DNA from: a virus
Lineage: Duplodnaviria > Heunggongvirae > Uroviricota > Caudoviricetes
Direction: 5' to 3' (one strand)
IMG/VR virus record: IMGVR_UViG_2529292834_000005
Location: 1 to 27,540 of that record
Length of the DNA: 27,540 nucleotides
Part shown: positions 1 through 27,540 of the stretch, piece by piece
Numbering within the stretch: the stretch's first letter is position 1
Layout: every line of letters starts with the position of its first letter
Position numbers and translations under genes: made by a program
The notes under the pieces: model-generated
The model's input: only the letters and a program-made list of their open reading frames with translations
Database searches by the model: none
What the model was told of the DNA's origin: nothing

Positions 1-462
1 CCTCCGGCAGGAAACAACAGCACCCTGATTGCCAGCACCGCCTTTGTACAGGCTGCTATTCTTGCCCTGATTGGTGGTGCACCGGCAACGCTGGATACGC
101 TGAAAGAAATTGCAGCAGCTATCAATAATGATCCGAATTTCAGTACCACCATTAACAATGCGCTGGCACTGAAAGCACCGCTGGCAAGTCCGGCCCTGAC
201 CGGAACGCCAACGGCTCCCACTGCTGTTCAGTCAACGAATAATACGCAGATTGCCACTACCGCGTTTGTGAAATCTGCTGTTGCGGGGCTGGTTGGTTCG
301 TCGCCGGAGGCGCTGGACACACTGAATGAACTGGCGGCTGCGCTGGGGAATGATCCTAACTTTGCGACAACAGTGATGAACGCGCTGGCGGGTAAACAGC
401 CACTTGATGCCACGCTGACGAATCTAAGCGGGAAAAGTGTTTCGGCCCTTCTACAATACCTT
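1..462. repeat. Left copy of perfect inverted repeat (window-truncated), encodes central tail-fiber segment
   Basis: Seen directly: position x pairs with position 2414-x; reverse complement of 1-60 equals 2354-2413; identical 61-aa shadow ORFs at 228-413(-) and 2001-2186(+); identity stops after 462/1952. Confidence 0.95.
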
Positions 463-771
463 GGTTTAAGGGCAAGCGGTCAGTACACCGATAACTTGTT
501 ATTTACAGGCCCTGATGGACTTAAGATTCAGGTGTTTCGCAGAACGCTCGCAAATCAGACTACTGTCGGCGTAGTAAATACAGTGCCAGTGACTTTCCCT
601 GTCCCGTTCCCCGTTAATTGCTGGGGTGTTTTTTCTACCAAATTAACATGGGTTCAGATAGCCAACTCATGCGAGTGGGTAAGCAATACAGGTTTCACCG
701 CTCAGGTCATGATGAATATTGCTGTAAATACAAACACCTCAGAAGCCATGTTTTTAGCTATAGGATATTAA
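1..771 (+). CDS. Alternative tail-fiber C-terminal cassette (5' end beyond window), inverted relative to the H operon
   Basis: In-frame from position 1; first 154 aa identical to the central region of H on the minus strand, then a distinct C-terminus (GLRASGQYTDNLLF...FLAIGY); followed by its own assembly gene. Confidence 0.7.
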   Translation, partial: PPAGNNSTLIASTAFVQAAILALIGGAPATLDTLKEIAAAINNDPNFSTTINNALALKAPLASPALTGTPTAPTAVQSTNNTQIATTAFVKSAVAGLVGSSPEALDTLNELAAALGNDPNFATTVMNALAGKQPLDATLTNLSGKSVSALLQYLGLRASGQYTDNLLFTGPDGLKIQVFRRTLANQTTVGVVNTVPVTFPVPFPVNCWGVFSTKLTWVQIANSCEWVSNTGFTAQVMMNIAVNTNTSEAMFLAIGY

Positions 772-772
772 T

Positions 773-1213
773 ATGAATCGTTTTGTATTCAGCCCATCAG
801 AGTCCCGTTTTTATGCCATCGAATGGCGTGCTGATTATGTCGATAATAATTGCTGGCCGCATGATGCCATTAACGTTAGTGACAGCACTTATTATGAGTT
901 TTCCGGCACTCCACCTACAGGTAAGCAACTTATAACTTTAAATAATATGCCATCATGGGGTGATATTCCCCCGCCTACACGAGAAGAATTAATTGCCGCT
1001 GCTGATATGGAGAAACAAAAAAGAATAGATTTAGCCAATGATTACATGAACGTTAAGCAGTGGCCCGGTAAGGCAGCGATTGGCAGGCTGAAAGGAGAAG
1101 GGCTAACTCAATACAATCTGTGGCTGGATTATCTGGATGCACTGGAAGCGGTAGACACCTCCAGTGCTACGGATATCGAATGGCCTACGCCTCCGGGGGA
1201 ACAGGCCAGTTAA
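773..1213 (+). CDS. Tail fiber assembly protein, alternative copy
   Basis: 146 aa starting 2 bp after the alternative fiber cassette; shares PPxTREELIAAA and C-terminal WPxPP motifs with the minus-strand assembly protein; P2 G / Mu U family by recollection. Confidence 0.8.
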   Translation: MNRFVFSPSESRFYAIEWRADYVDNNCWPHDAINVSDSTYYEFSGTPPTGKQLITLNNMPSWGDIPPPTREELIAAADMEKQKRIDLANDYMNVKQWPGKAAIGRLKGEGLTQYNLWLDYLDALEAVDTSSATDIEWPTPPGEQAS

Positions 1214-1607
1214 CATGCTCAGGGTCGGTTGTCACATCAGCCGACTTAACTCCATTTTTATAGGCCAGCCACGCCGACAGCTTAGCTCTGTTGGCGTCGC
1301 TGATTTCACCGAGCATCAGTTCTGTTCGCCAGTCCAGCATAACAGCGTCAGCATGGGCCAGTAGTTTCTGGCGTTCTTGTTCGGCAGCAGCAATCAACTC
1401 TTCACGTGTCGCCGGTGGAATATCAATCCAGACTGGCATATTTTGGCTGGAACTTAGCTGTTTGCCTTCAGGCGGTGCAAAGTTATATTCATTTCTGACG
1501 CTATCAGAAACCTCTATAACATCAGATGGTAATGAACCATTGGTAAGGTATTCTTCTTTCATCTCGATGGGGTAAAAACCCAATGTGCTTGGCGAAAATA
1601 AATACAT
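1185..1607 (-). CDS. G: Tail fiber assembly protein (P2 gpG-like)
   Basis: 140 aa directly downstream of H on the minus strand; paralog of 773-1213; 3' ends of the two converge and overlap by 29 bp. Confidence 0.85.
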   Translation of the reverse strand: MYLFSPSTLGFYPIEMKEEYLTNGSLPSDVIEVSDSVRNEYNFAPPEGKQLSSSQNMPVWIDIPPATREELIAAAEQERQKLLAHADAVMLDWRTELMLGEISDANRAKLSAWLAYKNGVKSADVTTDPEHVNWPVPPEA

Positions 1608-1609
1608 GG

Positions 1610-3001
1610 TTATTTTCCTATGGCAATAAAATATGAAGAATTCATTCCACCCATATTGTATTTAGCAAAAAATCGGGTCAGGTCATTTACGTCACGTTGT
1701 ATCGATGGAAATTGTAGTGATGGTGATGCAGTTGTGGACATTAAAACGCCTGGCACAATAGCAATAACGCTACTCGGAAATGGTATAGGGAAATTGATAT
1801 ATAGCCCGTTAGAATCAAAAGATGCCTCGAAAGCCTGAATAACATATCCACTCGGCAACTTAAACCACCCGCCACCAGACTGAAAACTACTCATATCAGG
1901 GATTTGGCTTGCACCTGAGCCAACATCCCGTTTCGCCGCTTCTCCCAATTGAAGGTATTGTAGAAGGGCCGAAACACTTTTCCCGCTTAGATTCGTCAGC
2001 GTGGCATCAAGTGGCTGTTTACCCGCCAGCGCGTTCATCACTGTTGTCGCAAAGTTAGGATCATTCCCCAGCGCAGCCGCCAGTTCATTCAGTGTGTCCA
2101 GCGCCTCCGGCGACGAACCAACCAGCCCCGCAACAGCAGATTTCACAAACGCGGTAGTGGCAATCTGCGTATTATTCGTTGACTGAACAGCAGTGGGAGC
2201 CGTTGGCGTTCCGGTCAGGGCCGGACTTGCCAGCGGTGCTTTCAGTGCCAGCGCATTGTTAATGGTGGTACTGAAATTCGGATCATTATTGATAGCTGCT
2301 GCAATTTCTTTCAGCGTATCCAGCGTTGCCGGTGCACCACCAATCAGGGCAAGAATAGCAGCCTGTACAAAGGCGGTGCTGGCAATCAGGGTGCTGTTGT
2401 TTCCTGCCGGAGGTGTTGGCGTTTTAGGCATGCCTGTCAGAGTCGGACTGTCTTTTGGTGCATACTGCGAATGAGGATCAACAGCAGCAAGGTGCTTTGC
2501 CATCAGGTCATCCACATACACCTTAAGCTCCAGCACCTTGTCATCCACATATTTGCGGGTTGCCAGAACCACTGCAGGGTCAATTTTCAGGGTGATGTTA
2601 TCGGTGCTGCTGGTAATCAGTACCATACGCACGGTCTGCGTGCGTCCGCTGCCCTCCGCCAGCTTCGGCTTGTAGCTCTCCGGGCAGTTTCCCACAGCAA
2701 TCAGCGCGCCGGTTTCATCAAACAGGCCGACTTCACGAATCCACCACCCACCCTCATTTTCCGGGATCACCTGCTCTGCAATAATCTGGCTGCTGTTCTG
2801 CGGGTCGATATACAGCATATTCAGCGCTGCGCGGCGCTCCTCAGCAACTAACGCGGTCTGTTGCGCGTTGGGTGTGGGCAGCACACCGCCACCGCTACCC
2901 ACCGCCATATGGGTAATTTTCAACGGTACACCGAGCGCGGTGGCGCTTGCCAGTTTCGCCGCGCCGATATCCGTCAGCAGGGTGTAAAATTTTGCGCTCA
3001 T
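1610..3001 (-). CDS. H: Tail fiber protein (P2 gpH-like)
   Basis: 463 aa; N-terminus MSAKFYTLLTDIGAAKLA...MAVGSGGG resembles P2 gpH from memory; residues about 197-350 are encoded by the inverted repeat; unique C-terminal domain. Confidence 0.9.
   Translation of the reverse strand: MSAKFYTLLTDIGAAKLASATALGVPLKITHMAVGSGGGVLPTPNAQQTALVAEERRAALNMLYIDPQNSSQIIAEQVIPENEGGWWIREVGLFDETGALIAVGNCPESYKPKLAEGSGRTQTVRMVLITSSTDNITLKIDPAVVLATRKYVDDKVLELKVYVDDLMAKHLAAVDPHSQYAPKDSPTLTGMPKTPTPPAGNNSTLIASTAFVQAAILALIGGAPATLDTLKEIAAAINNDPNFSTTINNALALKAPLASPALTGTPTAPTAVQSTNNTQIATTAFVKSAVAGLVGSSPEALDTLNELAAALGNDPNFATTVMNALAGKQPLDATLTNLSGKSVSALLQYLQLGEAAKRDVGSGASQIPDMSSFQSGGGWFKLPSGYVIQAFEASFDSNGLYINFPIPFPSSVIAIVPGVLMSTTASPSLQFPSIQRDVNDLTRFFAKYNMGGMNSSYFIAIGK
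1952..2413. repeat. Right copy of inverted repeat, lying inside tail-fiber gene H
   Basis: Reverse complement of 1-462; may extend beyond 2413 but the partner would lie left of the window start. Confidence 0.95.
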
Positions 3002-3603
3002 GGGTTCACTCTCATCGTGTCAATAACATGGACCGCCCCGCCCTCATAAGCGGTGCCGCCGGAAATAATGGTTTCGTTGATATACGGGTAGATCGTGATT
3101 TCTTCGCCGGTGTAGGTGGCTGCCCCCACAAAATACGGGCCGCCAGTCTGCAGGTTGATGGACATACCAACCAGATGACGGCTGCATGGTTTGGCATCAC
3201 CGATCAGGCGCTCCAGCTCCAGATAGGTTTCTTCTGTTATCCCCTGGTCCTGCACGCCAATATCCAGACGGAACGTCCCCGGCGTTTCACCGGTCTGCCA
3301 CCACTCAATGATGCGGATCAGGAAGCCGAACGGCTCCACCACGCGCCGCACGGCGCTGGTTGTCCCCTTGTGCTGATGGATATAAAAAGCGTCCTGCACA
3401 ACGCGGCGCTTGACGCTTTCTGTCCAGCTCTCATCCCAGCGGTCAACAGAAAACGCCCAGGCCAGATAAGGCAGGAATCTGATCGGGCAGGTTGCCGGGT
3501 TCCACAAATCACGCAGCGATACCTGCAGATCGGAAATCCCGCTGCAGGTCTGCGCCAGTCTGCGCTCAAGCGGCGACGAACCCGGCGGCAACAGACTATT
3601 CAT
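2998..3603 (-). CDS. I: Baseplate/tail protein (P2 gpI-like)
   Basis: Start placed at internal ATG 3603 (MNSLLPPGSSPLERRLAQ...), giving about 200 aa and an 8-bp overlap with J; the longer ORF start at 3750 would run deep into J. Confidence 0.8.
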   Translation of the reverse strand: MNSLLPPGSSPLERRLAQTCSGISDLQVSLRDLWNPATCPIRFLPYLAWAFSVDRWDESWTESVKRRVVQDAFYIHQHKGTTSAVRRVVEPFGFLIRIIEWWQTGETPGTFRLDIGVQDQGITEETYLELERLIGDAKPCSRHLVGMSINLQTGGPYFVGAATYTGEEITIYPYINETIISGGTAYEGGAVHVIDTMRVNP

Positions 3604-4504
3604 CTGTGCCCCCGTTGGTGACGCTCCACTCTGTACAGGACGCCGCCTGCGTCTTATCCAGCACCACATCCTCCAGCGGGGACGCCAGTTCCACACGCTG
3701 GACGCCCTCCACATGCAACGCGGCATAAATGGCGCTGCGGCGGATATCACGTCCCAGCCGCGTCTGACTGGCGATGTATTTCTGCAGGCTGGCTTTTGCT
3801 TCTGCCATCACAGGCTCAGCCTCCGGCCCCGGATAAAGGAAGATCGTCGCATCCACGCTGTACGGAATAATTTCAGCGCTGCGCACCGTCAGGCGGTCTG
3901 CCACCGGGCGAACCTTTTCACTATTAAGCGCCTGCTCAACCACTGCCAGCAGGTCAGCCCCTGCTGTACCGTCACCCTCGCGACTCAGTACGGTAAGCAC
4001 CACCTCTGCCGGTGCAGGACTGGTTGCGCTGGCATCAGCCACGCGCCCGTCGGCGCTTCTGGCGTGGAACTCATAGGCTCCCGTCGGCCCTGCAACGGAC
4101 AGCCCCTCAAATGCTGCAGGAATACGCTGGCGTAATGCTTCATCACTTTCCATCACTGCGGCGACCGGCGGCACCGCGTCATTATCGGCAGGGACTACCG
4201 TCAGGCGCTTCACGTTGCAGTTACCTGCCAGTTGTTCAAGGTCATTCCCCATGGAATAGGCCACCATGACCGCCTGCGCAGCCTCATTAATTCGCTGACG
4301 CAGCAGAATTTCGCGGTAAGTATTTTCCTGCAGCAGTTTGGTGACAGGTTCTGACTCCAGCGCTAACGTACGCATAACGGCCTCCTGTCCATCAGCCGGA
4401 TGGAGGGCCACAAAGGCGGCCTTGCGTTCTGCCAGCAATGCCTCAAAGTCCGGCACATCCACAATCTGCGGCGGCGGTAGTTGGGAAAGATCAATGACTG
4501 CCAT
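3596..4504 (-). CDS. J: Baseplate assembly protein (P2 gpJ-like)
   Basis: Start placed at ATG 4504 (MAVIDLSQLPPPQIVDVPDFEALLAERKA...), about 302 aa, matching P2 gpJ length and N-terminus as recalled. Confidence 0.85.
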   Translation of the reverse strand: MAVIDLSQLPPPQIVDVPDFEALLAERKAAFVALHPADGQEAVMRTLALESEPVTKLLQENTYREILLRQRINEAAQAVMVAYSMGNDLEQLAGNCNVKRLTVVPADNDAVPPVAAVMESDEALRQRIPAAFEGLSVAGPTGAYEFHARSADGRVADASATSPAPAEVVLTVLSREGDGTAGADLLAVVEQALNSEKVRPVADRLTVRSAEIIPYSVDATIFLYPGPEAEPVMAEAKASLQKYIASQTRLGRDIRRSAIYAALHVEGVQRVELASPLEDVVLDKTQAASCTEWSVTNGGTDE

Positions 4505-4850
4505 TGTCTGCTCCTGTTGATACGGAAAGGGAAACTGGCGCGCCGTTATTGCTGTGTCCGATAAGCTCAACCACCATAGATCCGTCAAAATTGCCGCTGA
4601 TGGTGATGGAGTCCAGCGTAAGGCGCGGCTCCCAGCGGTTCAGCGCCACATAGACCGCAGCCATAATCTGCAGGCGCAGCGCCGGGTTCTGTGGCTGGTC
4701 AATCAGGGCAGACAGCAGGGAGCCATATTCCCGACGGGCAAGACGGCTACCCTGCGGAGTCAGCAGAATATCCCGCACCGACTGGCGCAGATGTTCTGTA
4801 TCTGCAATGGCCTGCCCGTCATTCCTGCTCATACCGATATACAACGTCAT
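4491..4850 (-). CDS. W: Baseplate assembly protein W (gp25-like)
   Basis: 119 aa, MTLYIGMSRNDGQ...GSRLARREYGSLL resembles P2 gpW; overlaps V stop by 4 bp. Confidence 0.85.
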   Translation of the reverse strand: MTLYIGMSRNDGQAIADTEHLRQSVRDILLTPQGSRLARREYGSLLSALIDQPQNPALRLQIMAAVYVALNRWEPRLTLDSITISGNFDGSMVVELIGHSNNGAPVSLSVSTGADNGSH

Positions 4851-5425
4851 ACCGGACCTCCCGTGTTGTCGCCGCCTTTCAGAACACCAGTATGCTCATG
4901 GTCATCAACCACGATCCCGTTAGAACTCATTGCGCCGCCGCCCTGGGTGACGCTGCCATTGATAACCATGTCACTGTTAATACGCGTTCTGTCAGCTTCC
5001 ACCACAAACTCACGGGTTTTGTAGGTGACGCTGTCTGCTGCCTCGATCACCATAGATTTGATGCCCCTGACATACCATCGTCCGGTGGCGGGTTCATATT
5101 CAAACCAGCCACCATCTTCATATTCGGTCACGTCAGCGCTTTCAGAATCTGACGGCGGCGGGAACTCATTGGAGTAAATAGCGGGAAGCGCAAAAGCCGT
5201 TTCCATATTTCCGCCCAGGCTGAACAGCACCACCTGCTCCCCTGGTGACGGACACCACCAGGTGCGAGACTTTCCAGCCCGATATGTCAGCCAGCTAATC
5301 CAGTTGGTTTCAAGCTCGCCCGTTTTCACCCGGCACAGCCAGCCGTCCCGGTCCACTTCGGTCACGGTGCCGGTGCGGATCAGGTTGGTGATAAGGCGCA
5401 TGATTTCGGTCAGTTGTGCATTCAT
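4847..5425 (-). CDS. V: Baseplate spike protein (P2 gpV-like)
   Basis: Start at ATG 5425 (MNAQLTEIMRLITNLIRTG...) aligns with recalled P2 gpV N-terminus; C-terminal HTGVLKGGDNTGGPV. Confidence 0.85.
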   Translation of the reverse strand: MNAQLTEIMRLITNLIRTGTVTEVDRDGWLCRVKTGELETNWISWLTYRAGKSRTWWCPSPGEQVVLFSLGGNMETAFALPAIYSNEFPPPSDSESADVTEYEDGGWFEYEPATGRWYVRGIKSMVIEAADSVTYKTREFVVEADRTRINSDMVINGSVTQGGGAMSSNGIVVDDHEHTGVLKGGDNTGGPV

Positions 5426-5471
5426 TCCGTGAGAGTGCATCAACAAAACAAATCAAAAAACCTATCGTCTT

Positions 5472-5489
5472 TGTATGGAGTCTCTTACA
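5472..5489. promoter_or_regulatory. TGT-N12-ACA dyad, candidate P2-type late-promoter activator site in the V upstream region
   Basis: Seen: tgt atggagtctctt aca; P2 late promoters carry such a dyad upstream of the -35 region (established knowledge); spacing to the V start is short, so the assignment is tentative. Confidence 0.3.
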
Positions 5490-5541
5490 ATGAAGCATCA
5501 ATACTATTTGTTATTTTATTAAATTTAAAAGCACTAACAAC

Positions 5542-6336
5542 TTGAGTTATTTAAATATGATTTTATATAAATATGTGGATTCGAAAACAGCGGAAATAAT
5601 ACTGAACACTTCGACCTTGAAATTTTCAAAGGCATCGTCCCTAAATGATCCCTTCGAGCTAACGAGCTTGCATTACGATTCTGAATCCGAAGATGCAGAA
5701 CAAGCTATGAGGTTTGTTGCAGCCTCTATGTCCTACGGTATTCTTTCACTTACCCGTAACCCTTTAAACCCTCTGATGTGGGCACATTATGCTAGGGGCG
5801 AAAAATTAGAAGGAACAAGAGGTATTTCTCTCGACATAGGAAACGGCTCCCATGCAGGATTTGTTTTTGGAATTGATGCAGACGCAGCAGGGTTAAATGA
5901 AAATGGTTCTAATGTCATTCCTGCGAAGTTTGGAAGCGTCATTTATGCTTCAACAAAACCAAAATCGCCCTTCATAAACTCTACTAATTCATTTTTCTAT
6001 GAAGGCCTTCAACACATATATAACCCAGATATACTTGAGGCACTACAAAGAACATTCCTGTATAAACCAGCTTACTGGTCTTATGAGGAAGAAGTTAGAG
6101 TTGTAAGAAATGTACATAGACGTAAAACAGAAATCCAAGAGATAGAAAAATCAAGTATTAAGGAATTGTATTTAGGGTTTAGAAACTCATTTAATAAAAA
6201 TTATTTAATTCAAAAGCGTGATGAAATAAACGCTATACTGCCTCTTTGTAAGATTTATGTATGTGGCTTCGATCAGTCAGAGTGGACCTTTAACAAATTG
6301 CCTATTGATGAGGCTATCCGTCAATGCCTTGTTTGA
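5542..6336 (+). CDS. AT-rich accessory protein, 264 aa, possibly DUF2971-like
   Basis: Inserted between V and S on the opposite strand, 2 bp from the S stop; clearly lower GC than flanks; N-terminal LYKY...FSKASSLNDPFE recalls the DUF2971 signature, unverified. Confidence 0.75.
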   Translation: MSYLNMILYKYVDSKTAEIILNTSTLKFSKASSLNDPFELTSLHYDSESEDAEQAMRFVAASMSYGILSLTRNPLNPLMWAHYARGEKLEGTRGISLDIGNGSHAGFVFGIDADAAGLNENGSNVIPAKFGSVIYASTKPKSPFINSTNSFFYEGLQHIYNPDILEALQRTFLYKPAYWSYEEEVRVVRNVHRRKTEIQEIEKSSIKELYLGFRNSFNKNYLIQKRDEINAILPLCKIYVCGFDQSEWTFNKLPIDEAIRQCLV

Positions 6337-6338
6337 AG

Positions 6339-6788
6339 CTATGACTCCGATAACCAGTGCAATAGCGTTTCGCGGGTAATGGTTTCCACCTCATCATTCA
6401 CGCCCAGCAGGCGGCGCTCAGCATAGCGGACCTCCGGGCCTTTACGGCTGACGCGGTCACGCAGGCCGTAGTGGTGAACACGGGCAATACGCTGCACCTT
6501 GCCCTCAAACTGCACGCTGGCAGAGTCAGCACTGGCTGCAGTTTTCAGGTATTTTGTTGTGCGAAGCTTTGCAAACATCTGGCGTTTGATGCGTCCCTTC
6601 TTGCTGCGGGCTGTCACCCGGCGCGGCTCATAGCCGCTGCCATCAGGATTACGCTGCAGCCTGATGTTTTGCTGCTGCGTCCGGCGCAGCTGTTGCGCCA
6701 GCTGTCGCATCATACGTTTGCGGGCTGCCGGTTCCAGATTCGCAAGCAGCGCCGTCAGCCAGTCATCCACCCTCTGCAGTTCATCCAC
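6339..6788 (-). CDS. S: Tail completion protein (P2 gpS-like)
   Basis: 149 aa; conserved block RIARVHHYGLRDRVSRKGPEVRYAERRLLG as in P2 gpS by recollection. Confidence 0.85.
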   Translation of the reverse strand: MDELQRVDDWLTALLANLEPAARKRMMRQLAQQLRRTQQQNIRLQRNPDGSGYEPRRVTARSKKGRIKRQMFAKLRTTKYLKTAASADSASVQFEGKVQRIARVHHYGLRDRVSRKGPEVRYAERRLLGVNDEVETITRETLLHWLSES

Positions 6789-7212
6789 GTTTCACCGTCC
6801 ACATTTCTTCGGGTTCGTCCGGCTCCGGCACTGCTTCAACGCTTGACACGCTACCGTTAGTGCTGACCAGTACGCGCTCCGTCAGTTGCAGGTTCAGGCT
6901 GATATCGCACACATCGTTGCGCAGAATATCCACTTCAAAGGTGAACAGTTTTTCGCGCAGCTCCGGGTTATTGATAGCATCCGGCTGGTTGTCACTTAGC
7001 CACAGCAGCACAGGAGCCATCAGTAGATTCTGGTCGCCGCTGAAATCCTCGATCACCACGTTCAGGGTGTAGCGGTATTCCCATGACATGGAGCTGGCAC
7101 CGGTTGCCACCAGTGAGCCGTTATCAACGAAAAGGTGCAGCTTGTCCGGGTTGTCACGGACATAAGCAACCGTTTTATTCAGGGCGCTGCGTAAGGACTG
7201 CGGTTTGTTCAC
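6781..7212 (-). CDS. R: Tail completion protein (P2 gpR-like)
   Basis: Start placed at GTG 7212 preceded by AGGAG; N-terminus then reads VNKPQSLRSALNKTVAYVRDNPDKLHLFVDNGS, similar to P2 gpR; the ORF-track start at 7284 would overlap lysC heavily. Confidence 0.75.
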   Translation of the reverse strand: MNKPQSLRSALNKTVAYVRDNPDKLHLFVDNGSLVATGASSMSWEYRYTLNVVIEDFSGDQNLLMAPVLLWLSDNQPDAINNPELREKLFTFEVDILRNDVCDISLNLQLTERVLVSTNGSVSSVEAVPEPDEPEEMWTVKRG

Positions 7213-7465
7213 TGTCTCGCTCCTGACACGCAATAATCGTGTCCACTTTGTCAGCACAGACCGCCCAGGCGGCCTCGGTTTCATCCAGCACCGCGTTCAG
7301 ATCGCCGTTACTGCGCGGCGCTGACCTTTCCAGACGGCACTGCGTCACTCTGGGACAGCCACTCACGGTAAGCTGCACCTCCGGCGAGGGCCGGACGCTC
7401 CCGCAGCCGGATAATGTCAGCAGGCAAAGGAGTATCAGCCCAGCTGCGCAAATCCTCATTTTCAC
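7175..7465 (-). CDS. lysC: Outer-membrane spanin lipoprotein (LysC / Rz1-like)
   Basis: 96 aa with signal peptide and lipobox LTLSGC; reading frame starts inside lysB in another frame and extends past its stop, as in P2 lysB/lysC. Confidence 0.75.
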   Translation of the reverse strand: MKMRICAAGLILLCLLTLSGCGSVRPSPEVQLTVSGCPRVTQCRLERSAPRSNGDLNAVLDETEAAWAVCADKVDTIIACQERDSEQTAVLTQRPE

Positions 7466-23926: not shown

Positions 23927-24042
23927 AGTGCAGTATCTCTTAGTTTTGTTTCGATTTATCTCGTTTTATAGGGTTGGGGTTTGTTTTTCAAACCTTGAAT
24001 GAATACTAAGATCACATTTTATATACGTCAAGAGTTTTGCTT
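23927..24042. promoter_or_regulatory. Lysis/lysogeny switch region (pR/pL-type promoters and operators)
   Basis: 116-bp AT-rich region between divergent apl and cI; individual operators and promoters not resolved by eye. Confidence 0.5.
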
Positions 24043-24675
24043 ATGAGATCCATCAAGGTAGGTAATGACAGCGGAGGGCGTGAAGCTATCAATAGGCTGA
24101 TTAAGGCTTATAACTTCAACTCTCGACAGCAGTTGTGTGACCATCTTTCCGTTTCAAAAAGCACTATGGCAAACAGATACTTAAGAGACAGTTTCCCAGC
24201 TGAATGGGTTATACAGTGCGCCCTTGAAACTGGGGTTTCACTGCTTTGGTTAACGACTGGGCAAGGGGATAAAAATGATAATAACGCGCAGGAAAATAGT
24301 TTTGGTTTTGTGAACCAGACCTACATCAAACCGTTATCCGAGGTTGTAGCGCCTGAAATTGATAAGGCCACATTAGATGGTGGCGCTTTAGTGGACCAAG
24401 GCAAAGTGATATTGGATAACAGTCTAATCCCCCACAACATGACAAACCCGTGGCTCATCCATACAGATGATGGCTCTTACCTCATTGACCGTAGCGGTAC
24501 TCCACCAGTAAATGGCGTATGGCTCGTTGATATTGATGGAATAAAAACGATAGCTAAACTTGCGCGCATCCCCGGCAATCGCTTAATTGTCCAGCAGGGT
24601 GAGTCATCTTTTGAGTGCAGCCTTGATGATATCGAGGTAGTAGGCCGTGCTATAAAAGTAATTAAGAGTCTGTGA
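24043..24675 (+). CDS. cI: CI immunity repressor (phage 186 CI type)
   Basis: Start at ATG 24043 (MRSIKVG...); ...CALETGVSLLWLTTGQG and C-terminal GVWLVDIDG...LARIPGNRL resemble 186 CI as recalled; no obvious RecA-autocleavage motif noted. Confidence 0.8.
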   Translation: MRSIKVGNDSGGREAINRLIKAYNFNSRQQLCDHLSVSKSTMANRYLRDSFPAEWVIQCALETGVSLLWLTTGQGDKNDNNAQENSFGFVNQTYIKPLSEVVAPEIDKATLDGGALVDQGKVILDNSLIPHNMTNPWLIHTDDGSYLIDRSGTPPVNGVWLVDIDGIKTIAKLARIPGNRLIVQQGESSFECSLDDIEVVGRAIKVIKSL

Positions 24676-24676
24676 T

Positions 24677-25696
24677 ATGACGATCAGAAAACAGCCGAAC
24701 GGAAAATGGTTGTGTGAGTGCTACCCGAACGGGCGCGACGGCAAACGCGTGCGCAAGCAATTTGCGACGAAAGGCGAGGCCATAGCATTCGAAAACTTCA
24801 CCATGGATGAAGTAAACAAAAAGCCATGGCTTGGTGAGAAGGAAGATCGGCGGCGCTTATCAGAAGTGATTGAGCAGTGGCATTCACTCTACGGACAGAC
24901 ACTTGCTGATCCCAAACGCCTGATGGCGAAACTTAACATTATTTGTAATGGCCTTGGAGACCCCATCGCCTCAGAGTTAACTGCTGGCGATTTTACAAAA
25001 TACCGGGAAGCTCGGCTAAAAGGTGAAGTAAAAAATGAAAATGGCGCTCTTATGTCGCCAGTTAAGCCCCGTACTGTAAACCTTGAACAACGCAACCTAT
25101 CATCAGTTTTTGGCACACTGAAGAAGCTAGGCCACTGGTCAGCACCAAACCCACTCGCCGGGCTACCAACATTCAAGATCGCAGAGGGTGAGTTGGCGTT
25201 CCTAGCACCGGAAGAAATTAAGCGCCTGCTGGATGCCTGCGCTGATTCCCAAAGCCCCAGCCTGCTGATGATTGCAAAAATATGCCTTGCCACCGGCGCG
25301 CGATGGAGTGAAGCCGAAAACCTGCAGGGCCACCAGTTATCAAAGTACCGGATCACCTATACCAAGACCAAAGGCAAAAAAAACCGCACAGTACCGATAT
25401 CCCAGAATCTGTATGACGAACTCCCTAAGAACAGAGGCAAGTTATTCACACCTTGTAGAAAATCCTTTGAACGAGCAGTAAAACGGGCTGGTATCGAGCT
25501 GCCTGATGGACAATGCACCCACGTGCTTCGTCATACGTTCGCCAGTTATTTTATGATGAATGGCGGAAACATACTTGTATTAAGAGATATTCTGGGCCAT
25601 GCCGATATAAAAATGACGATGATTTACGCTCACTTTGCCCCTAATCATCTTGAAGATGCGGTGACAAAAAACCCACTTACTATGTTGGAAATATAA
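24677..25696 (+). CDS. int: Tyrosine integrase (P2/186 type)
   Basis: 339 aa; C-terminal catalytic region HVLRHTFAS...LGHADIKMTMIYAHF (R...HxxR...Y pattern); follows cI in the same operon. Confidence 0.9.
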   Translation: MTIRKQPNGKWLCECYPNGRDGKRVRKQFATKGEAIAFENFTMDEVNKKPWLGEKEDRRRLSEVIEQWHSLYGQTLADPKRLMAKLNIICNGLGDPIASELTAGDFTKYREARLKGEVKNENGALMSPVKPRTVNLEQRNLSSVFGTLKKLGHWSAPNPLAGLPTFKIAEGELAFLAPEEIKRLLDACADSQSPSLLMIAKICLATGARWSEAENLQGHQLSKYRITYTKTKGKKNRTVPISQNLYDELPKNRGKLFTPCRKSFERAVKRAGIELPDGQCTHVLRHTFASYFMMNGGNILVLRDILGHADIKMTMIYAHFAPNHLEDAVTKNPLTMLEI

Positions 25697-25698
25697 AA

Positions 25699-26730
25699 AT
25701 GGAAAAAAGCATTTTTACTCTTATTTATTTTTCCCTTTTATTTTTGTGTCTATTTTCTTTTATTAAGTATCGACTTTACGAACTTAATCATAGAAGCTTA
25801 TTTCAACAACCACTATTCTGGGCTGCAATAGCGATACCCTTATTCACATGTCTTTATTTAGGCTCATTTGTCTGGATAAACAAATTAAACTCATTTAGCC
25901 TTACAAGCCACGGCTATCAGCGATTTCTCGACATATCAAAATTACCACTGCTAATTCTTGCATCTGCAGTACCTTTAGTCTCAATCGTTAATAACCTACA
26001 CCGGACCAAACAAACTGAAAAACAAATCTCAGAAGCAGAGAGAAAAAACAGAGTAGACTTATATTACAATCATATGAAGTTCCATCTTGATTTATATAAA
26101 AAGATTGAGTCAAAGAAAATCAGCAGTTACTATCCCATTGAAGAAACTCATAAAGAAGCTGTATATCAACATTTCATCAAACACCCGCAAGAACTTTACA
26201 GAAAAGCCTATCCCTTATCTTCACCAGATGACTCTCAATACTTAAACATCAGTGATAGTTTTATCATAGAACTGCATAAATGTTGGGTTGAAATCAATGG
26301 CAGACTGAAGCAACTATCAGAGAGCGATGTACAGCTAAATCCTGACCAAGAACTTTGTGCTTCAAAGATGAGAATTTTCTTTGGAATAATGAATATTTAT
26401 GAAAAGACTTGCAAGCATCTTTGTTTAGGGGGGTATCACACCCAAAAATCATTCATTTTGAATGATAAATTTGATAAGTATCAAATCTATTCGCCATTTT
26501 ATGACTTTGGAACTATGTACCAGTCTCTGCAGGCTCTGGAGGAAATTACATACGCCTTCCTAGATACATGTAGAAACGAAGAGGTAAATTTATATTTCCC
26601 GTTAGAAGACAAAATCCTCATCTATGGCGAAGGAATTCTTCAAGATTGGTTCAGGTATTCTCAGTTCTTGATTTCTACAGCTTATCAACCCTCCAGGATT
26701 GCGCGTCTACCAATGCCAGTACAAGTATAA
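25699..26730 (+). CDS. AT-rich membrane-anchored cargo protein, 343 aa (3 N-terminal TM helices plus about 245-aa soluble domain)
   Basis: Starts 2 bp after the int stop; hydrophobic segments at about 5-22, 39-59 and 80-97; markedly AT-rich; lies between int and the att core. Confidence 0.75.
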   Translation: MEKSIFTLIYFSLLFLCLFSFIKYRLYELNHRSLFQQPLFWAAIAIPLFTCLYLGSFVWINKLNSFSLTSHGYQRFLDISKLPLLILASAVPLVSIVNNLHRTKQTEKQISEAERKNRVDLYYNHMKFHLDLYKKIESKKISSYYPIEETHKEAVYQHFIKHPQELYRKAYPLSSPDDSQYLNISDSFIIELHKCWVEINGRLKQLSESDVQLNPDQELCASKMRIFFGIMNIYEKTCKHLCLGGYHTQKSFILNDKFDKYQIYSPFYDFGTMYQSLQALEEITYAFLDTCRNEEVNLYFPLEDKILIYGEGILQDWFRYSQFLISTAYQPSRIARLPMPVQV

Positions 26731-26847
26731 TTTATGGCGGCATTATGGCGGCAGAGCACTAAAAAAGCATAAAACGGACAAACACCAAATAACATTAACA
26801 TATTGTTTTTAAACATAACTTACTGTTTTTAATACAGTTAAAATGGT

Positions 26848-26892
26848 ATGTAGGAATTTCGGACGCGGGTTCAACTCCCGCCAGCTCCACCA
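26848..26892 (+). other. ssrA: Prophage att core: 3'-terminal 45 nt of tmRNA gene ssrA (partial copy ending in CCA)
   Basis: Seen: ATGTAGGAATTTCGGACGCGGGTTCAACTCCCGCCAGCTCCACCA, matching the E. coli ssrA 3' end as I recall it; upstream sequence is phage coding DNA, so only the 3' fragment is present. Confidence 0.75.
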
Positions 26893-26908
26893 AATATTGA
26901 TGTACTGA

Positions 26909-27540
<632 letters not shown>

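What the first reader, a model, noticed from the sequence alone, without database searches (positions are those of the whole stretch)
1..2413. Tail-fiber invertible-segment architecture with perfect inverted repeats of at least 462 bp and two alternative C-terminal cassettes
Positions 1-462 are the exact reverse complement of 1952-2413, so the central part of tail fiber H is duplicated in inverse orientation. Between the repeats lie two different fiber C-termini, each with its own assembly chaperone, arranged tail-to-tail with overlapping 3' ends. This is the Mu G / P1 C / e14 P layout for host-range switching by a serine invertase, and I recall a Fin invertase being reported on Fels-2. The inner edge of the repeat carries a hix/gix-like 26-bp motif, TTCTACAATACC TT GGTTTAAGGGCA at 449-474, with partner at 1940-1965. 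No invertase gene is in the window and the repeat runs to the window edge, so the true crossover sites may instead lie at outer ends off-window, as in P1.
Basis: partly seen in the sequence, partly recalled or inferred. Interest (0 to 1): 0.55.

Follow-up and report, generated by a model that had tools for sequence, protein, structure and literature searches.

The report
Prophage tail-fibre flip switch, misassembled end
This is an ordinary, well-known kind of phage DNA switch that flips a 1.5-kb segment to swap the tip of the tail fibre, and the striking 462-base perfect inverted repeat is most likely made by the draft assembly joining the two flip states at a contig end.

Summary
Positions 1-462 are the exact reverse complement of 1952-2413. 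Two fibre-tip cassettes, each with its own chaperone, lie between them. Gin/Cin-like 26-bp sites sit at 449-474 and 1940-1965.

The window is a whole draft contig (E. coli 2741950, APXF01000152.1), so base 1 is a contig end. In a 99.97% identical prophage (L003) and in complete E. coli genomes (L001, L002), the segment 463-1951 is flanked on one side by H. On the other side is a 185-aa serine invertase (81% identical to the Fels-2 invertase, 79% to P1 Cin, 74% to Mu Gin), followed by the tail sheath gene. Genomes in opposite orientations differ exactly at the central TT/AA of the two sites.

None of 45 intact related loci repeats the fibre gene outside its crossover sites. Draft assemblies often break at these sites (22 of 52). 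The long repeat is therefore best read as the junction of the flipped state attached to a contig in the unflipped state. The P1-like "outer crossover" idea fails.

The switch itself is real, of the Fels-2/P2-like Fin type, and already known. A rarer real alternative, one segment between two H genes after recombination between two prophage copies, is not excluded (about 10%).

The parts
1..460 (+). Second, reverse-complement copy of H codons ~197-349 that runs to the contig end. Best read as the H side of the flipped-state (state B) junction, attached by the assembler, rather than a true neighbour of the segment.
   Evidence: 100% complementary to 1954-2413. Window = whole contig. L003, L001 and about 21 complete E. 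coli genomes diverge from the window at 455-461 into invertase-side DNA.
449..474 (.). 26-bp crossover site as it reads in state B: H outer half-site TTCTACAATACC, central TT (461-462), cassette-1 inner half-site GGTTTAAGGGCA.
   Evidence: 22/26 identical to P1 cixR and 19/26 to Mu gix. Top PWM score in the window, 19.9 bits. The breakpoint between orientations in L001/L002/L003 falls at the central TT.
463..1951 (.). The invertible segment proper (1,489 bp between the central dinucleotides).
   Evidence: L001/L003 carry it in the window's orientation and L002 in the opposite one, with the flanks unchanged. The same length is measured in L003 and L002.
463..771 (+). Cassette 1: the alternative fibre tip (102 aa plus stop), silent in state A. 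Fused to H residues 1-350 it gives a 452-aa fibre in state B.
   Evidence: Gp53-like_C domain. The in-frame fusion gives 452 aa. Full-length 452-aa proteins of this kind exist in L002 and Citrobacter genomes.
773..1213 (+). Chaperone 1 (146 aa), the tail fibre assembly protein that goes with cassette 1.
   Evidence: Pfam Caudo_TAP E=2.8e-25.
1185..1607 (-). Chaperone 2 (140 aa), the tail fibre assembly protein that goes with cassette 2. It lies downstream of H in the state shown.
   Evidence: Pfam Caudo_TAP E=1e-28. 41% identical to chaperone 1.
1610..1951 (-). Cassette 2: the fibre tip currently fused to H (residues 351-463).
   Evidence: Gp53-like_C domain at H residues 381-462. Only 32% identity over 37 aa to cassette 1.
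1940..1965 (.). 26-bp crossover site inside H (codons 346-354): cassette-2 inner half-site TTCTCCCAATTG, central AA (1952-1953), H outer half-site GGTATTGTAGAA.
   Evidence: Second-best PWM score in the window, 12.9 bits. The inner half closely resembles the e14 site CCTTCTCCCAAACCAA quoted in PMC12529663. It is the breakpoint in L002 versus L001.
1952..3001 (-). Constant part of tail fibre gene H (residues 1-350), whose last residues LLQYL are encoded by the site.
   Evidence: Pfam Phage_tail_fib, residues 1-150, E=2.9e-63. 463-aa ORF 1610-3001. Upstream lie genes I, J, W and V as in P2/Fels-2.

Best explanation
Window 463-1951 is the invertible segment of a P2-like (Fels-2-type) prophage of ETEC strain E. 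coli 2741950. A Gin/Cin/Fin-type serine invertase is encoded just outside the segment, between it and the tail sheath gene, on another contig of this draft assembly. It binds two 26-bp sites in inverted orientation. One site lies inside fibre gene H (1940-1965). The other lies 54 nt upstream of the invertase's own start codon. By analogy with Hin, Gin and Cin, the invertase works with Fis bound to an enhancer in the first ~90 nt of its own gene. It cuts both sites at the central TT/AA, rotates the ends and rejoins them. This flips the 1.49-kb segment. Flipping replaces the last 113 residues of H with a different 102-residue receptor-binding tip and brings the matching chaperone gene in behind it. 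The phage therefore alternates between two host ranges. The 462-nt perfect 'inverted repeat' is not part of this machine. The sequenced DNA held both flip states, and the assembler extended leftwards out of cassette 1 along reads of the flipped state into H, instead of into the invertase, and then stopped. Shown: the sites, the cassettes, the exact exchange point, the invertase and its family in near-identical prophages, and both states in nature. Inferred: Fis/enhancer dependence, activity in this strain, and the assembly origin of the left arm.
For: The window is the whole contig and base 1 is a contig end. The other end lies in an IS21 istB fragment, another classic break point. L003 is 99.97% identical to window 458-7346, then leaves it at 458-460 for 54 nt of spacer, a 185-aa Resolvase+HTH_7 gene, the sheath and the tube. 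Complete genomes L001 (state A) and L002 (state B) have the same flanks and differ exactly at the central dinucleotides. Among complete E. coli genomes, 8 have cassette-1-like DNA fused to H over at least 97% of the query, 3 more carry it inside a gene annotated as phage tail protein, and about 21 hold it as an orphan fragment whose alignment stops at window 455-461. The invertase matches the Mu Gin crystal structure at E=3.6e-87. It is 81% identical to the Fels-2 invertase, 79% to Cin and 74% to Gin. It has S9, R42, K46, R47, R50 and Q150/R153/L154, the residues PMC3798978 reports as specific to Fis/enhancer-dependent invertases. The site at 449-474 is 22/26 identical to cixR. The 54-nt spacing from site to start codon is the same in L003, L002, Mu and Fels-2. 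No sheath, tube or invertase gene is in the window. In 45 intact loci, inverted homology outside the crossover is 11 nt or less in all but one, and that one duplicates the invertase side, not H. In 22 of 52 draft assemblies the contig ends 63-204 nt upstream of the invertase start. In 14 of those it ends in or within 6 nt of the site.
Against: No reads are available, so the mixed population is inferred rather than seen. L003 may come from a different strain: one SNP at window 1169, and no link between the run and the strain was found. A structure with homologous genes on both sides of a cassette pair does exist for real in one complete genome (L072). Contig breaks at the sites in other drafts could partly reflect internal repeats rather than mixed orientation.
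Confidence: 0.82

Rival explanations
1. The structure is real. In this strain one cassette segment sits between two inverted H genes, because the invertase recombined a site in one prophage copy with a site in a second, near-identical copy. That would cause a large chromosomal inversion. The reciprocal locus would be a segment between two invertase genes.
For: L072 in the complete Morganella morganii CYJ1 chromosome is just such a reciprocal-type locus. A cassette pair is flanked by two inverted invertase genes (689-nt repeat, 93% identical, so not an assembly copy), with no constant fibre gene beside it. A Citrobacter freundii genome encodes two identical invertases and both fibre forms about 30 genes apart, so double carriage occurs. 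This scenario and the mixed-population scenario give the same assembly graph, so the contig cannot tell them apart.
Against: It needs two prophage copies whose H genes are 100% identical over at least 462 nt. L003, L001 and L002, the closest relatives, all have the ordinary layout. None of 5,426 complete E. coli genomes or 50,697 phage records holds window 1-3100 as one piece; the best coverage is 85%. The arm stops after 462 nt at a contig end instead of continuing into I, J and W.
Confidence: 0.1
2. The long repeat is a real P1-type feature. The repeats belong to the invertible segment and the true crossover sites lie at their outer ends, one off-window to the left and one in H to the right of 2413.
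For: P1 has 636-nt, 98% repeats with the cix crossovers 11 nt from their outer ends. Fels-2 has a 204-nt, 92% repeat arranged the same way.
Against: The right-hand outer site would have to lie in the window, and nothing site-like exists between 2414 and 3001 (best -3.2 bits, against 19.9 and 12.9 for the inner sites). Natural genomes in opposite orientations switch partner exactly at 461-462 and 1952-1953, the inner edges. The near-identical L003 has no such repeat.
Confidence: 0.02
3. There is no switching. This is a fixed, decayed duplication of fibre gene pieces, the 26-bp motifs are relics, and any invertase is inactive.
For: Inversion was not observed directly in this strain. One relative (L002) has a frameshifted chaperone.
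Against: Both orientations of the same cassette pair occur in closely related genomes with unchanged flanks. All reading frames in the window are intact and both fusions are in frame. The invertase in L003/L001 is full length with the catalytic Ser9 and all family-specific residues. The contig-end join to H itself needs reads of the other orientation or a second copy.
Confidence: 0.03

Closest known systems
Fels-2 prophage (Salmonella LT2) tail-fibre inversion by the Fin invertase STM2702; P2-like phages (Peduoviridae) in general
   Same: The gene order is identical: J-I-H-chaperone-chaperone'-silent H tip-invertase-sheath FI-tube FII. The invertase is 81% identical. The outer site lies 54 nt upstream of the invertase start in both. 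Inversion of the Fels-2 fibre gene between LT2 and LT7 is published (PMC7953296), and Fin is a proven active invertase (statement in PMC12529663).
   Different: The segment is 1,489 bp, against 2,732 bp in Fels-2. The central dinucleotide is TT/AA, against TC/GA. Fels-2 has a 204-nt repeat inside its sites, whereas intact relatives of this one have none. The fibre tips (Gp53-like_C) are different.
Phage P1 C segment / Cin / cix
   Same: The invertase is 79% identical. The site at 449-474 is 22/26 identical to cixR and has the same central TT/AA. DNA equivalent to P1's annotated enhancer (cin nt 19-90) is 79% identical, against 67% for the rest of the gene. There are two tips and two chaperones arranged tail to tail.
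   Different: P1's segment is 4,256 bp and includes real 636-nt repeats inside the crossover sites. P1's cin lies with its 3' end at cixL, whereas here (as in Mu and Fels-2) the 5' end faces the site.
Phage Mu G segment / Gin / gix
   Same: The invertase is 74% identical over its full length and matches the Gin crystal structures 3UJ3 and 4M6F. The sites are short with no long repeat. There are 54 nt between the outer site and the invertase start. The S/U and S'/U' logic is the same.
   Different: Mu's segment is 3,056 bp, its central dinucleotide is TC/GA, and its fibre and chaperone families are different. Mu is a transposable phage, not P2-like.
e14 P segment / Pin (PinE, PinQ, PinR) of E. 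coli K-12
   Same: The cassette-2 inner half-site TTCTCCCAATTG|AA closely resembles the e14 repeat CCTTCTCCCAAACCAA (PMC12529663). The segment size is similar (1,797 bp in e14). Both swap fibre C-termini.
   Different: e14 is a defective lambdoid element, whereas here the context is a complete-looking P2-like prophage. The e14 sequence itself was not examined here.

Membership tests
Fis/enhancer-dependent serine DNA invertase systems (Hin/Gin/Cin/Pin/Fin) | A small serine recombinase (~185-195 aa: resolvase catalytic domain with the Ser9/10 nucleophile plus a C-terminal HTH) encoded next to the segment | tested here: met
   Not in the window itself (tblastn gives no hit; the contig ends first). 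It is present directly beside the same segment in L003 (99.97% identical DNA), L001 and L002: 185 aa, Pfam Resolvase E=7.5e-53 plus HTH_7 E=1.1e-13, Ser9, and Gin structure 3UJ3 at E=3.6e-87. Its presence in strain 2741950 is inferred.
Fis/enhancer-dependent serine DNA invertase systems (Hin/Gin/Cin/Pin/Fin) | Two 26-bp sites of imperfect dyad symmetry in inverted orientation, with the same central dinucleotide | tested here: met
   The sites are 449-474 and 1940-1965 (central TT and AA). In intact loci the left site is TTTTCTTAAACG TT GGTTTAAGGGCA. Identity is 22/26 to cixR. PWM ranks are 1 and 2 in the window.
Fis/enhancer-dependent serine DNA invertase systems (Hin/Gin/Cin/Pin/Fin) | Strand exchange at the central 2 bp, so that the two orientations differ exactly there | tested here: met
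   L001/L003 (state A) and L002 (state B) share their flanks and swap partners at window 461-462 and 1952-1953. About 21 further complete genomes break at 455-461. This is comparative evidence, not biochemical.
Fis/enhancer-dependent serine DNA invertase systems (Hin/Gin/Cin/Pin/Fin) | A recombinational enhancer with two Fis sites, usually in the 5' part of the invertase gene, and invertase residues that contact Fis and the enhancer | tested here: inconclusive
   The protein residues are all present: K46, R47, R50, Q150, R153 and L154, which correspond to Hin 47, 48, 51, 151, 154 and 155. The DNA aligned to P1's annotated enhancer is 57/72 identical. A simple Fis-motif scan was not discriminating. 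Function was not tested.
Fis/enhancer-dependent serine DNA invertase systems (Hin/Gin/Cin/Pin/Fin) | Both orientations arise within one clonal culture (actual switching) | not testable with these tools
   No reads were available. The contig-end join of cassette 1 to H is indirect evidence that state-B junction reads existed alongside the state-A junction in the same data set.
P1 C-segment architecture (long inverted repeats as part of the invertible segment) | The long repeats lie inside the crossover sites, which sit at their outer ends | tested here: not met
   This holds in P1 (636 nt) and Fels-2 (204 nt). In the window the repeat lies outside the sites, there is no site in 2414-3001, and there is no long repeat in L001, L002 or L003.
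Fels-2/P2-like (Peduoviridae) fin-type fibre switch | A P2-type tail module with the segment and invertase inserted between H and the sheath gene FI | tested here: met
   The window has V, W, J, I and H in P2 order. L003, L001 and L002 continue with invertase, sheath, tube, gpE and tape measure. Fels-2 has the same order. Many P2-like phage records carry an invertase 82-87% identical.

The most novel reading that the evidence does not exclude
The contig is correct. In E. coli 2741950 the cassette segment really lies between two inverted copies of fibre gene H. This would happen if the phage invertase recombined sites belonging to two prophage copies and so produced a large chromosomal inversion. 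It would be the reciprocal of the 'segment between two invertase genes' locus seen in Morganella morganii CYJ1 (L072). Tail-fibre invertases would then occasionally act as drivers of chromosome-scale rearrangement between prophages.
Probability: 0.08. Interest if true: 0.35.

Novelty: already known. Interest (0 to 1): 0.13.

Why it matters
The biology adds little that is new. Host-range switching by Gin/Cin/Pin/Fin invertases has been textbook material since the 1980s. The Fels-2/P2-like version is published, and RefSeq already annotates the same cassette pair with its 'recombinase family protein' in complete genomes. The practical lesson is about reading raw contigs. A perfect inverted repeat that runs into a contig end next to a site-specific inversion site is a signature of mixed flip states in the sequenced culture, not of genome architecture. 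As a by-product, that join suggests the switch was active, or present in two states, in strain 2741950. The survey also shows that about 40% of draft assemblies break at these sites. Invertase-linked fibre switches are therefore systematically split and under-annotated in draft genomes.

Tried and rejected

(2) I tried to link run SRR446748 (L003) to strain 2741950 through the literature. No paper mentions the run or the contig. One paper only identifies 2741950 as a CS3 ETEC strain.

(3) I scanned the invertase 5' region for Fis-like motifs (G-N13-C with an A/T-rich centre). The hits were not discriminating, so I dropped this as evidence.

(4) I considered intermolecular recombination between sister chromosomes as a source of real H(rc)-segment-H molecules. 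I rejected it as a bulk explanation. The products would be non-viable palindromic chromosomes, and the Fis/enhancer invertasome disfavours intermolecular reactions (established knowledge of the Hin/Gin mechanism; PMC3798978 gives the general scheme).

(5) I considered the 62-nt, 79% inverted repeat at 944-1005 / 1381-1442 as an extra crossover site. It is simply the conserved 'DIPPxTREELIAAA' stretch of the two homologous chaperone genes.

(6) tRNA and Rfam scans of the window found nothing.

(7) I examined L072 as a possible real counter-example. It is real, but it duplicates the invertase side, not H.
Full report

Yes. The repeat finder reports arms 1-462 and 1952-2413 as 462 nt and 100% complementary. 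Between them lie:
- 463-771 (+), the open 3' part of a fibre reading frame.
- Two tail-fibre assembly chaperone genes, 773-1213 (+) and 1185-1607 (-), which overlap by 29 nt.
- The last 113 codons of the 463-aa fibre gene H (1610-3001, -).

Pfam gives Phage_tail_fib at the N-terminus of H. It also gives Gp53-like_C in both alternative tips and Caudo_TAP for both chaperones. The tips are barely alignable (32% identity over 37 aa). The chaperones are 41% identical. The quoted 26-mers are there. The window holds no serine recombinase, sheath gene or tube gene.

**2. What the window is**

Exact-protein look-ups show that the window is the complete contig APXF01000152.1 (27,540 bp) of draft assembly GCA_000356225.2. 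The strain is Escherichia coli 2741950, a CS3-expressing ETEC (PMC6301781). Base 1 is therefore a contig end. The other end lies in an IS21 istB fragment that interrupts a second integrase gene. Both ends sit in DNA that assemblers cannot resolve.

**3. What lies beside this segment in intact DNA**

- L003, an independent assembly of run SRR446748, matches window 458-7346 with a single difference inside the shared DNA (window 1169). It leaves the window at 458-460. It then continues with 54 nt of spacer, a 185-aa Resolvase+HTH_7 gene, sheath, tube, gpE and tape measure.
- The complete genome of E. coli E7476 (L001) has the same layout and orientation ("state A").
- The complete genome L3_E36_ETEC (L002) has the segment flipped ("state B"). 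H is fused in frame to cassette 1 (452 aa) and the invertase lies beyond cassette 2.

The four junctions read:
- H | cassette 1: TTCTACAATACC TT GGTTTAAGGGCA
- cassette 2 | H: TTCTCCCAATTG AA GGTATTGTAGAA
- invertase side | cassette 1: TTTTCTTAAACG TT GGTTTAAGGGCA
- cassette 2 | invertase side: TTCTCCCAATTG AA CGTTTAAGAAAA

Partners are therefore exchanged exactly at the central TT/AA, window 461-462 and 1952-1953.

A 318-nt probe across 303-620 was run against 5,426 complete E. coli genomes. It found 8 genomes where cassette-1-like DNA is fused to H over at least 97% of the probe. In 3 more the cassette lies inside a gene annotated as phage tail protein, with a more diverged constant part. 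In about 21 genomes it is an orphan 'gp53-like' fragment whose alignment stops at window 455-461. Both states are common in nature.

**4. The invertase**

- It matches the Mu Gin crystal structures 3UJ3 and 4M6F over the full length (E = 3.6e-87).
- It is 81% identical to the Fels-2 invertase, 79% to P1 Cin and 74% to Mu Gin.
- It has Ser9 and R42. It also has K46, R47, R50, Q150, R153 and L154. An eLife study of Hin describes the matching residues as conserved only in Fis/enhancer-dependent invertases (PMC3798978).
- The stretch aligned to P1's annotated enhancer (cin nt 19-90) is 57/72 identical, against 67% for the rest of the gene.
- The outer site lies exactly 54 nt before the start codon in L003, L002, Mu and Fels-2.

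Fis dependence is thus likely but not shown.

**5. The sites**

Window 449-474 is 22/26 identical to P1 cixR and 19/26 to Mu gix. A weight matrix built only from Mu, P1, Fels-2 and e14 half-sites scores 19.9 bits at 449 and 12.9 at 1940. The next best 26-mer scores 5.4, and the best of 20 shuffled windows scores 12.6.

**6. Why the 462-nt repeat is probably not genomic**

- (a) It touches a contig end.
- (b) Its inner edge is the crossover dinucleotide itself. Window 1-474 is exactly the state-B junction, while 1940-3001 is the state-A junction of the same H gene.
- (c) The closest relatives have no long repeat.
- (d) I scanned one genome per species for relatives of the invertase. I then measured ungapped inverted homology on both sides of the predicted crossover in 41 loci with full flanks, plus L003, L002, Fels-2 and Mu. 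Outside the crossover it is 11 nt or less everywhere except L072. Inside, it ranges from 0 to 184 nt. The window gives 460 nt at 100% outside and 0 inside.
- (e) In 22 of 52 draft assemblies in that scan, the contig ends 63-204 nt upstream of the invertase start. In 14 of those it ends in or within 6 nt of the 26-bp site, and several contigs begin 'AAACC AA GGTTTAAGAAAA'. Draft assemblies habitually fall apart at these sites. The reference list of PMC7953296 cites a paper on the same problem for shufflons.
- (f) No complete E. coli genome or phage record holds window 1-3100 as one piece. The best coverage is 85%.

The simplest account is that the DNA preparation contained both flip states. The assembler left cassette 1 along state-B reads into H and then stopped.

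**7. The P1-like alternative**

P1 does have 636-nt, 98% repeats, and Fels-2 has a 204-nt, 92% repeat. In both, however, the repeats lie inside the crossover sites. For the window to be like that, a site would have to lie in H beyond 2413. The best score there is -3.2 bits, and natural flips occur at the inner edges. I reject this alternative.

**8. A real rival**

L072, in the complete Morganella morganii CYJ1 chromosome, is a cassette pair flanked by two inverted invertase genes. The repeat is 689 nt but only 93% identical, so it is not an assembly copy. No constant fibre gene lies beside it, and a truncated DNA-circulation gene sits upstream.

This looks like the product of recombination between sites in two different prophages. 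Its reciprocal would be a segment between two H genes, which is the window's layout. A Citrobacter freundii genome also appears to carry two copies of this prophage in opposite states.

The rival yields the same assembly graph as a mixed population, so the contig cannot exclude it. It needs two copies with identical H genes, and nothing in the nearest relatives supports it. I give it about 0.1.

**9. Mechanism, with status**

| Status | Claim |
|---|---|
| Shown | Two in-frame fibre forms (463 and 452 aa) that share residues 1-350 and the site-encoded LLQYL |
| Shown | Tip and chaperone travel together |
| Shown | Exchange at the central dinucleotide |
| Shown | A Gin/Cin/Fin-family invertase beside the segment in near-identical prophages |
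| Shown | Both states occur in nature |
| Inferred from the family | Dimer binding at each site |
| Inferred from the family | A Fis-bound enhancer in the invertase 5' region |
| Inferred from the family | Double-strand cleavage through Ser9, 180-degree rotation and religation |
| Inferred from the family | Host-range alternation |
| Inferred from the assembly | Both states, or two copies, were present in the sequenced culture |

**10. Novelty**

The kind of system is textbook. The Fels-2 case is published: fibre inversion between LT2 and LT7 next to fin (PMC7953296), and Fin as an active invertase (PMC12529663). Dozens of P2-like phage records annotate the invertase. The feature that looked unusual is most likely an artefact. 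Interest is low.

Noticed in passing
window 5542-6336 (+): A 264-aa DUF2971 protein (Pfam E=8.6e-6) matches the PADLOC candidate defence family PDC-S31 (E=2e-19). It is inserted between baseplate gene V and tail gene S. At the same spot E. coli E7476 (L001 9074-10640) has 'AAA family ATPase' plus 'DUF4435', and L002 has nothing. This looks like a variable cargo (possibly anti-phage) hotspot in this P2-like lineage.
   Followed up: partly
L072 4306-7549 (Morganella morganii CYJ1 complete chromosome, CP173058.1): A fibre-tip/chaperone cassette pair is flanked by two inverted invertase genes (689-nt repeat, 93% identical). No constant fibre gene lies beside it, and a truncated DNA_circ_N gene sits upstream. 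It looks like a product of invertase-mediated recombination between two prophages. The same chromosome has two more invertase loci (L070, L073).
   Followed up: partly
L010-L069 (22 draft-genome loci): In 22 of 52 draft assemblies the contig ends 63-204 nt upstream of the invertase start codon, often inside the 26-bp site (contigs start 'AAACC AA GGTTTAAGAAAA...'). Tail-fibre inversion sites are systematic contig breakpoints.
   Followed up: yes
L009 1678-1881 and 4240-4443 (Fels-2, NC_010463.1): Fels-2 has a 204-nt, 92% inverted repeat just inside its crossover sites (1681-1706 and 4415-4440; central TC/GA). The first ~60 residues of its two variable fibre parts are therefore shared, a smaller version of the P1 arrangement.
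   Followed up: yes
L003 6899-6952; L002 5965-6018; Mu L006 4447-4500; Fels-2 L009 4441-4494: The spacer between the outer crossover site and the invertase start codon is exactly 54 nt in all four systems, despite 74-81% protein identity. Most other species' loci also show 53-55 or 63-65 nt.
   Followed up: partly
window 1169: The window has A where L001, L002 and L003 all have C (Thr instead of Pro in chaperone 773-1213). It is the only difference from L003 in 6.9 kb apart from the junction. It is either a strain SNP or a consensus error.
   Followed up: partly
window 24037-27540: The right end holds a 186-type CI repressor (24037-24675), an integrase (24677-25696), and a 343-aa ORF with no Pfam or PADLOC hit (25699-26730). 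After these comes the N-terminal Arm-DNA-bind_3 part of a second integrase (26978-27376), cut off by an IS21 istB fragment that runs to the contig end. A related genome (L089) has that second integrase intact at 397 aa. The window has no tRNA and no Rfam hit.
   Followed up: partly
Citrobacter freundii 5.34-Mb genome (protein accessions AYL52818, AYL52822, AYL52848, AYL52851): One genome encodes two invertases identical to the L003 one. It also encodes both fibre forms (452 aa and 463 aa) about 30 genes apart. This suggests two copies of this prophage sitting in opposite flip states. The DNA was not fetched.
   Followed up: no
window 944-1005 and 1381-1442: A 62-nt, 79% inverted repeat lies inside the segment. 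It corresponds to the conserved 'DIPPxTREELIAAA' stretch of the two chaperone genes. It reflects homology, not a recombination site.
   Followed up: yes
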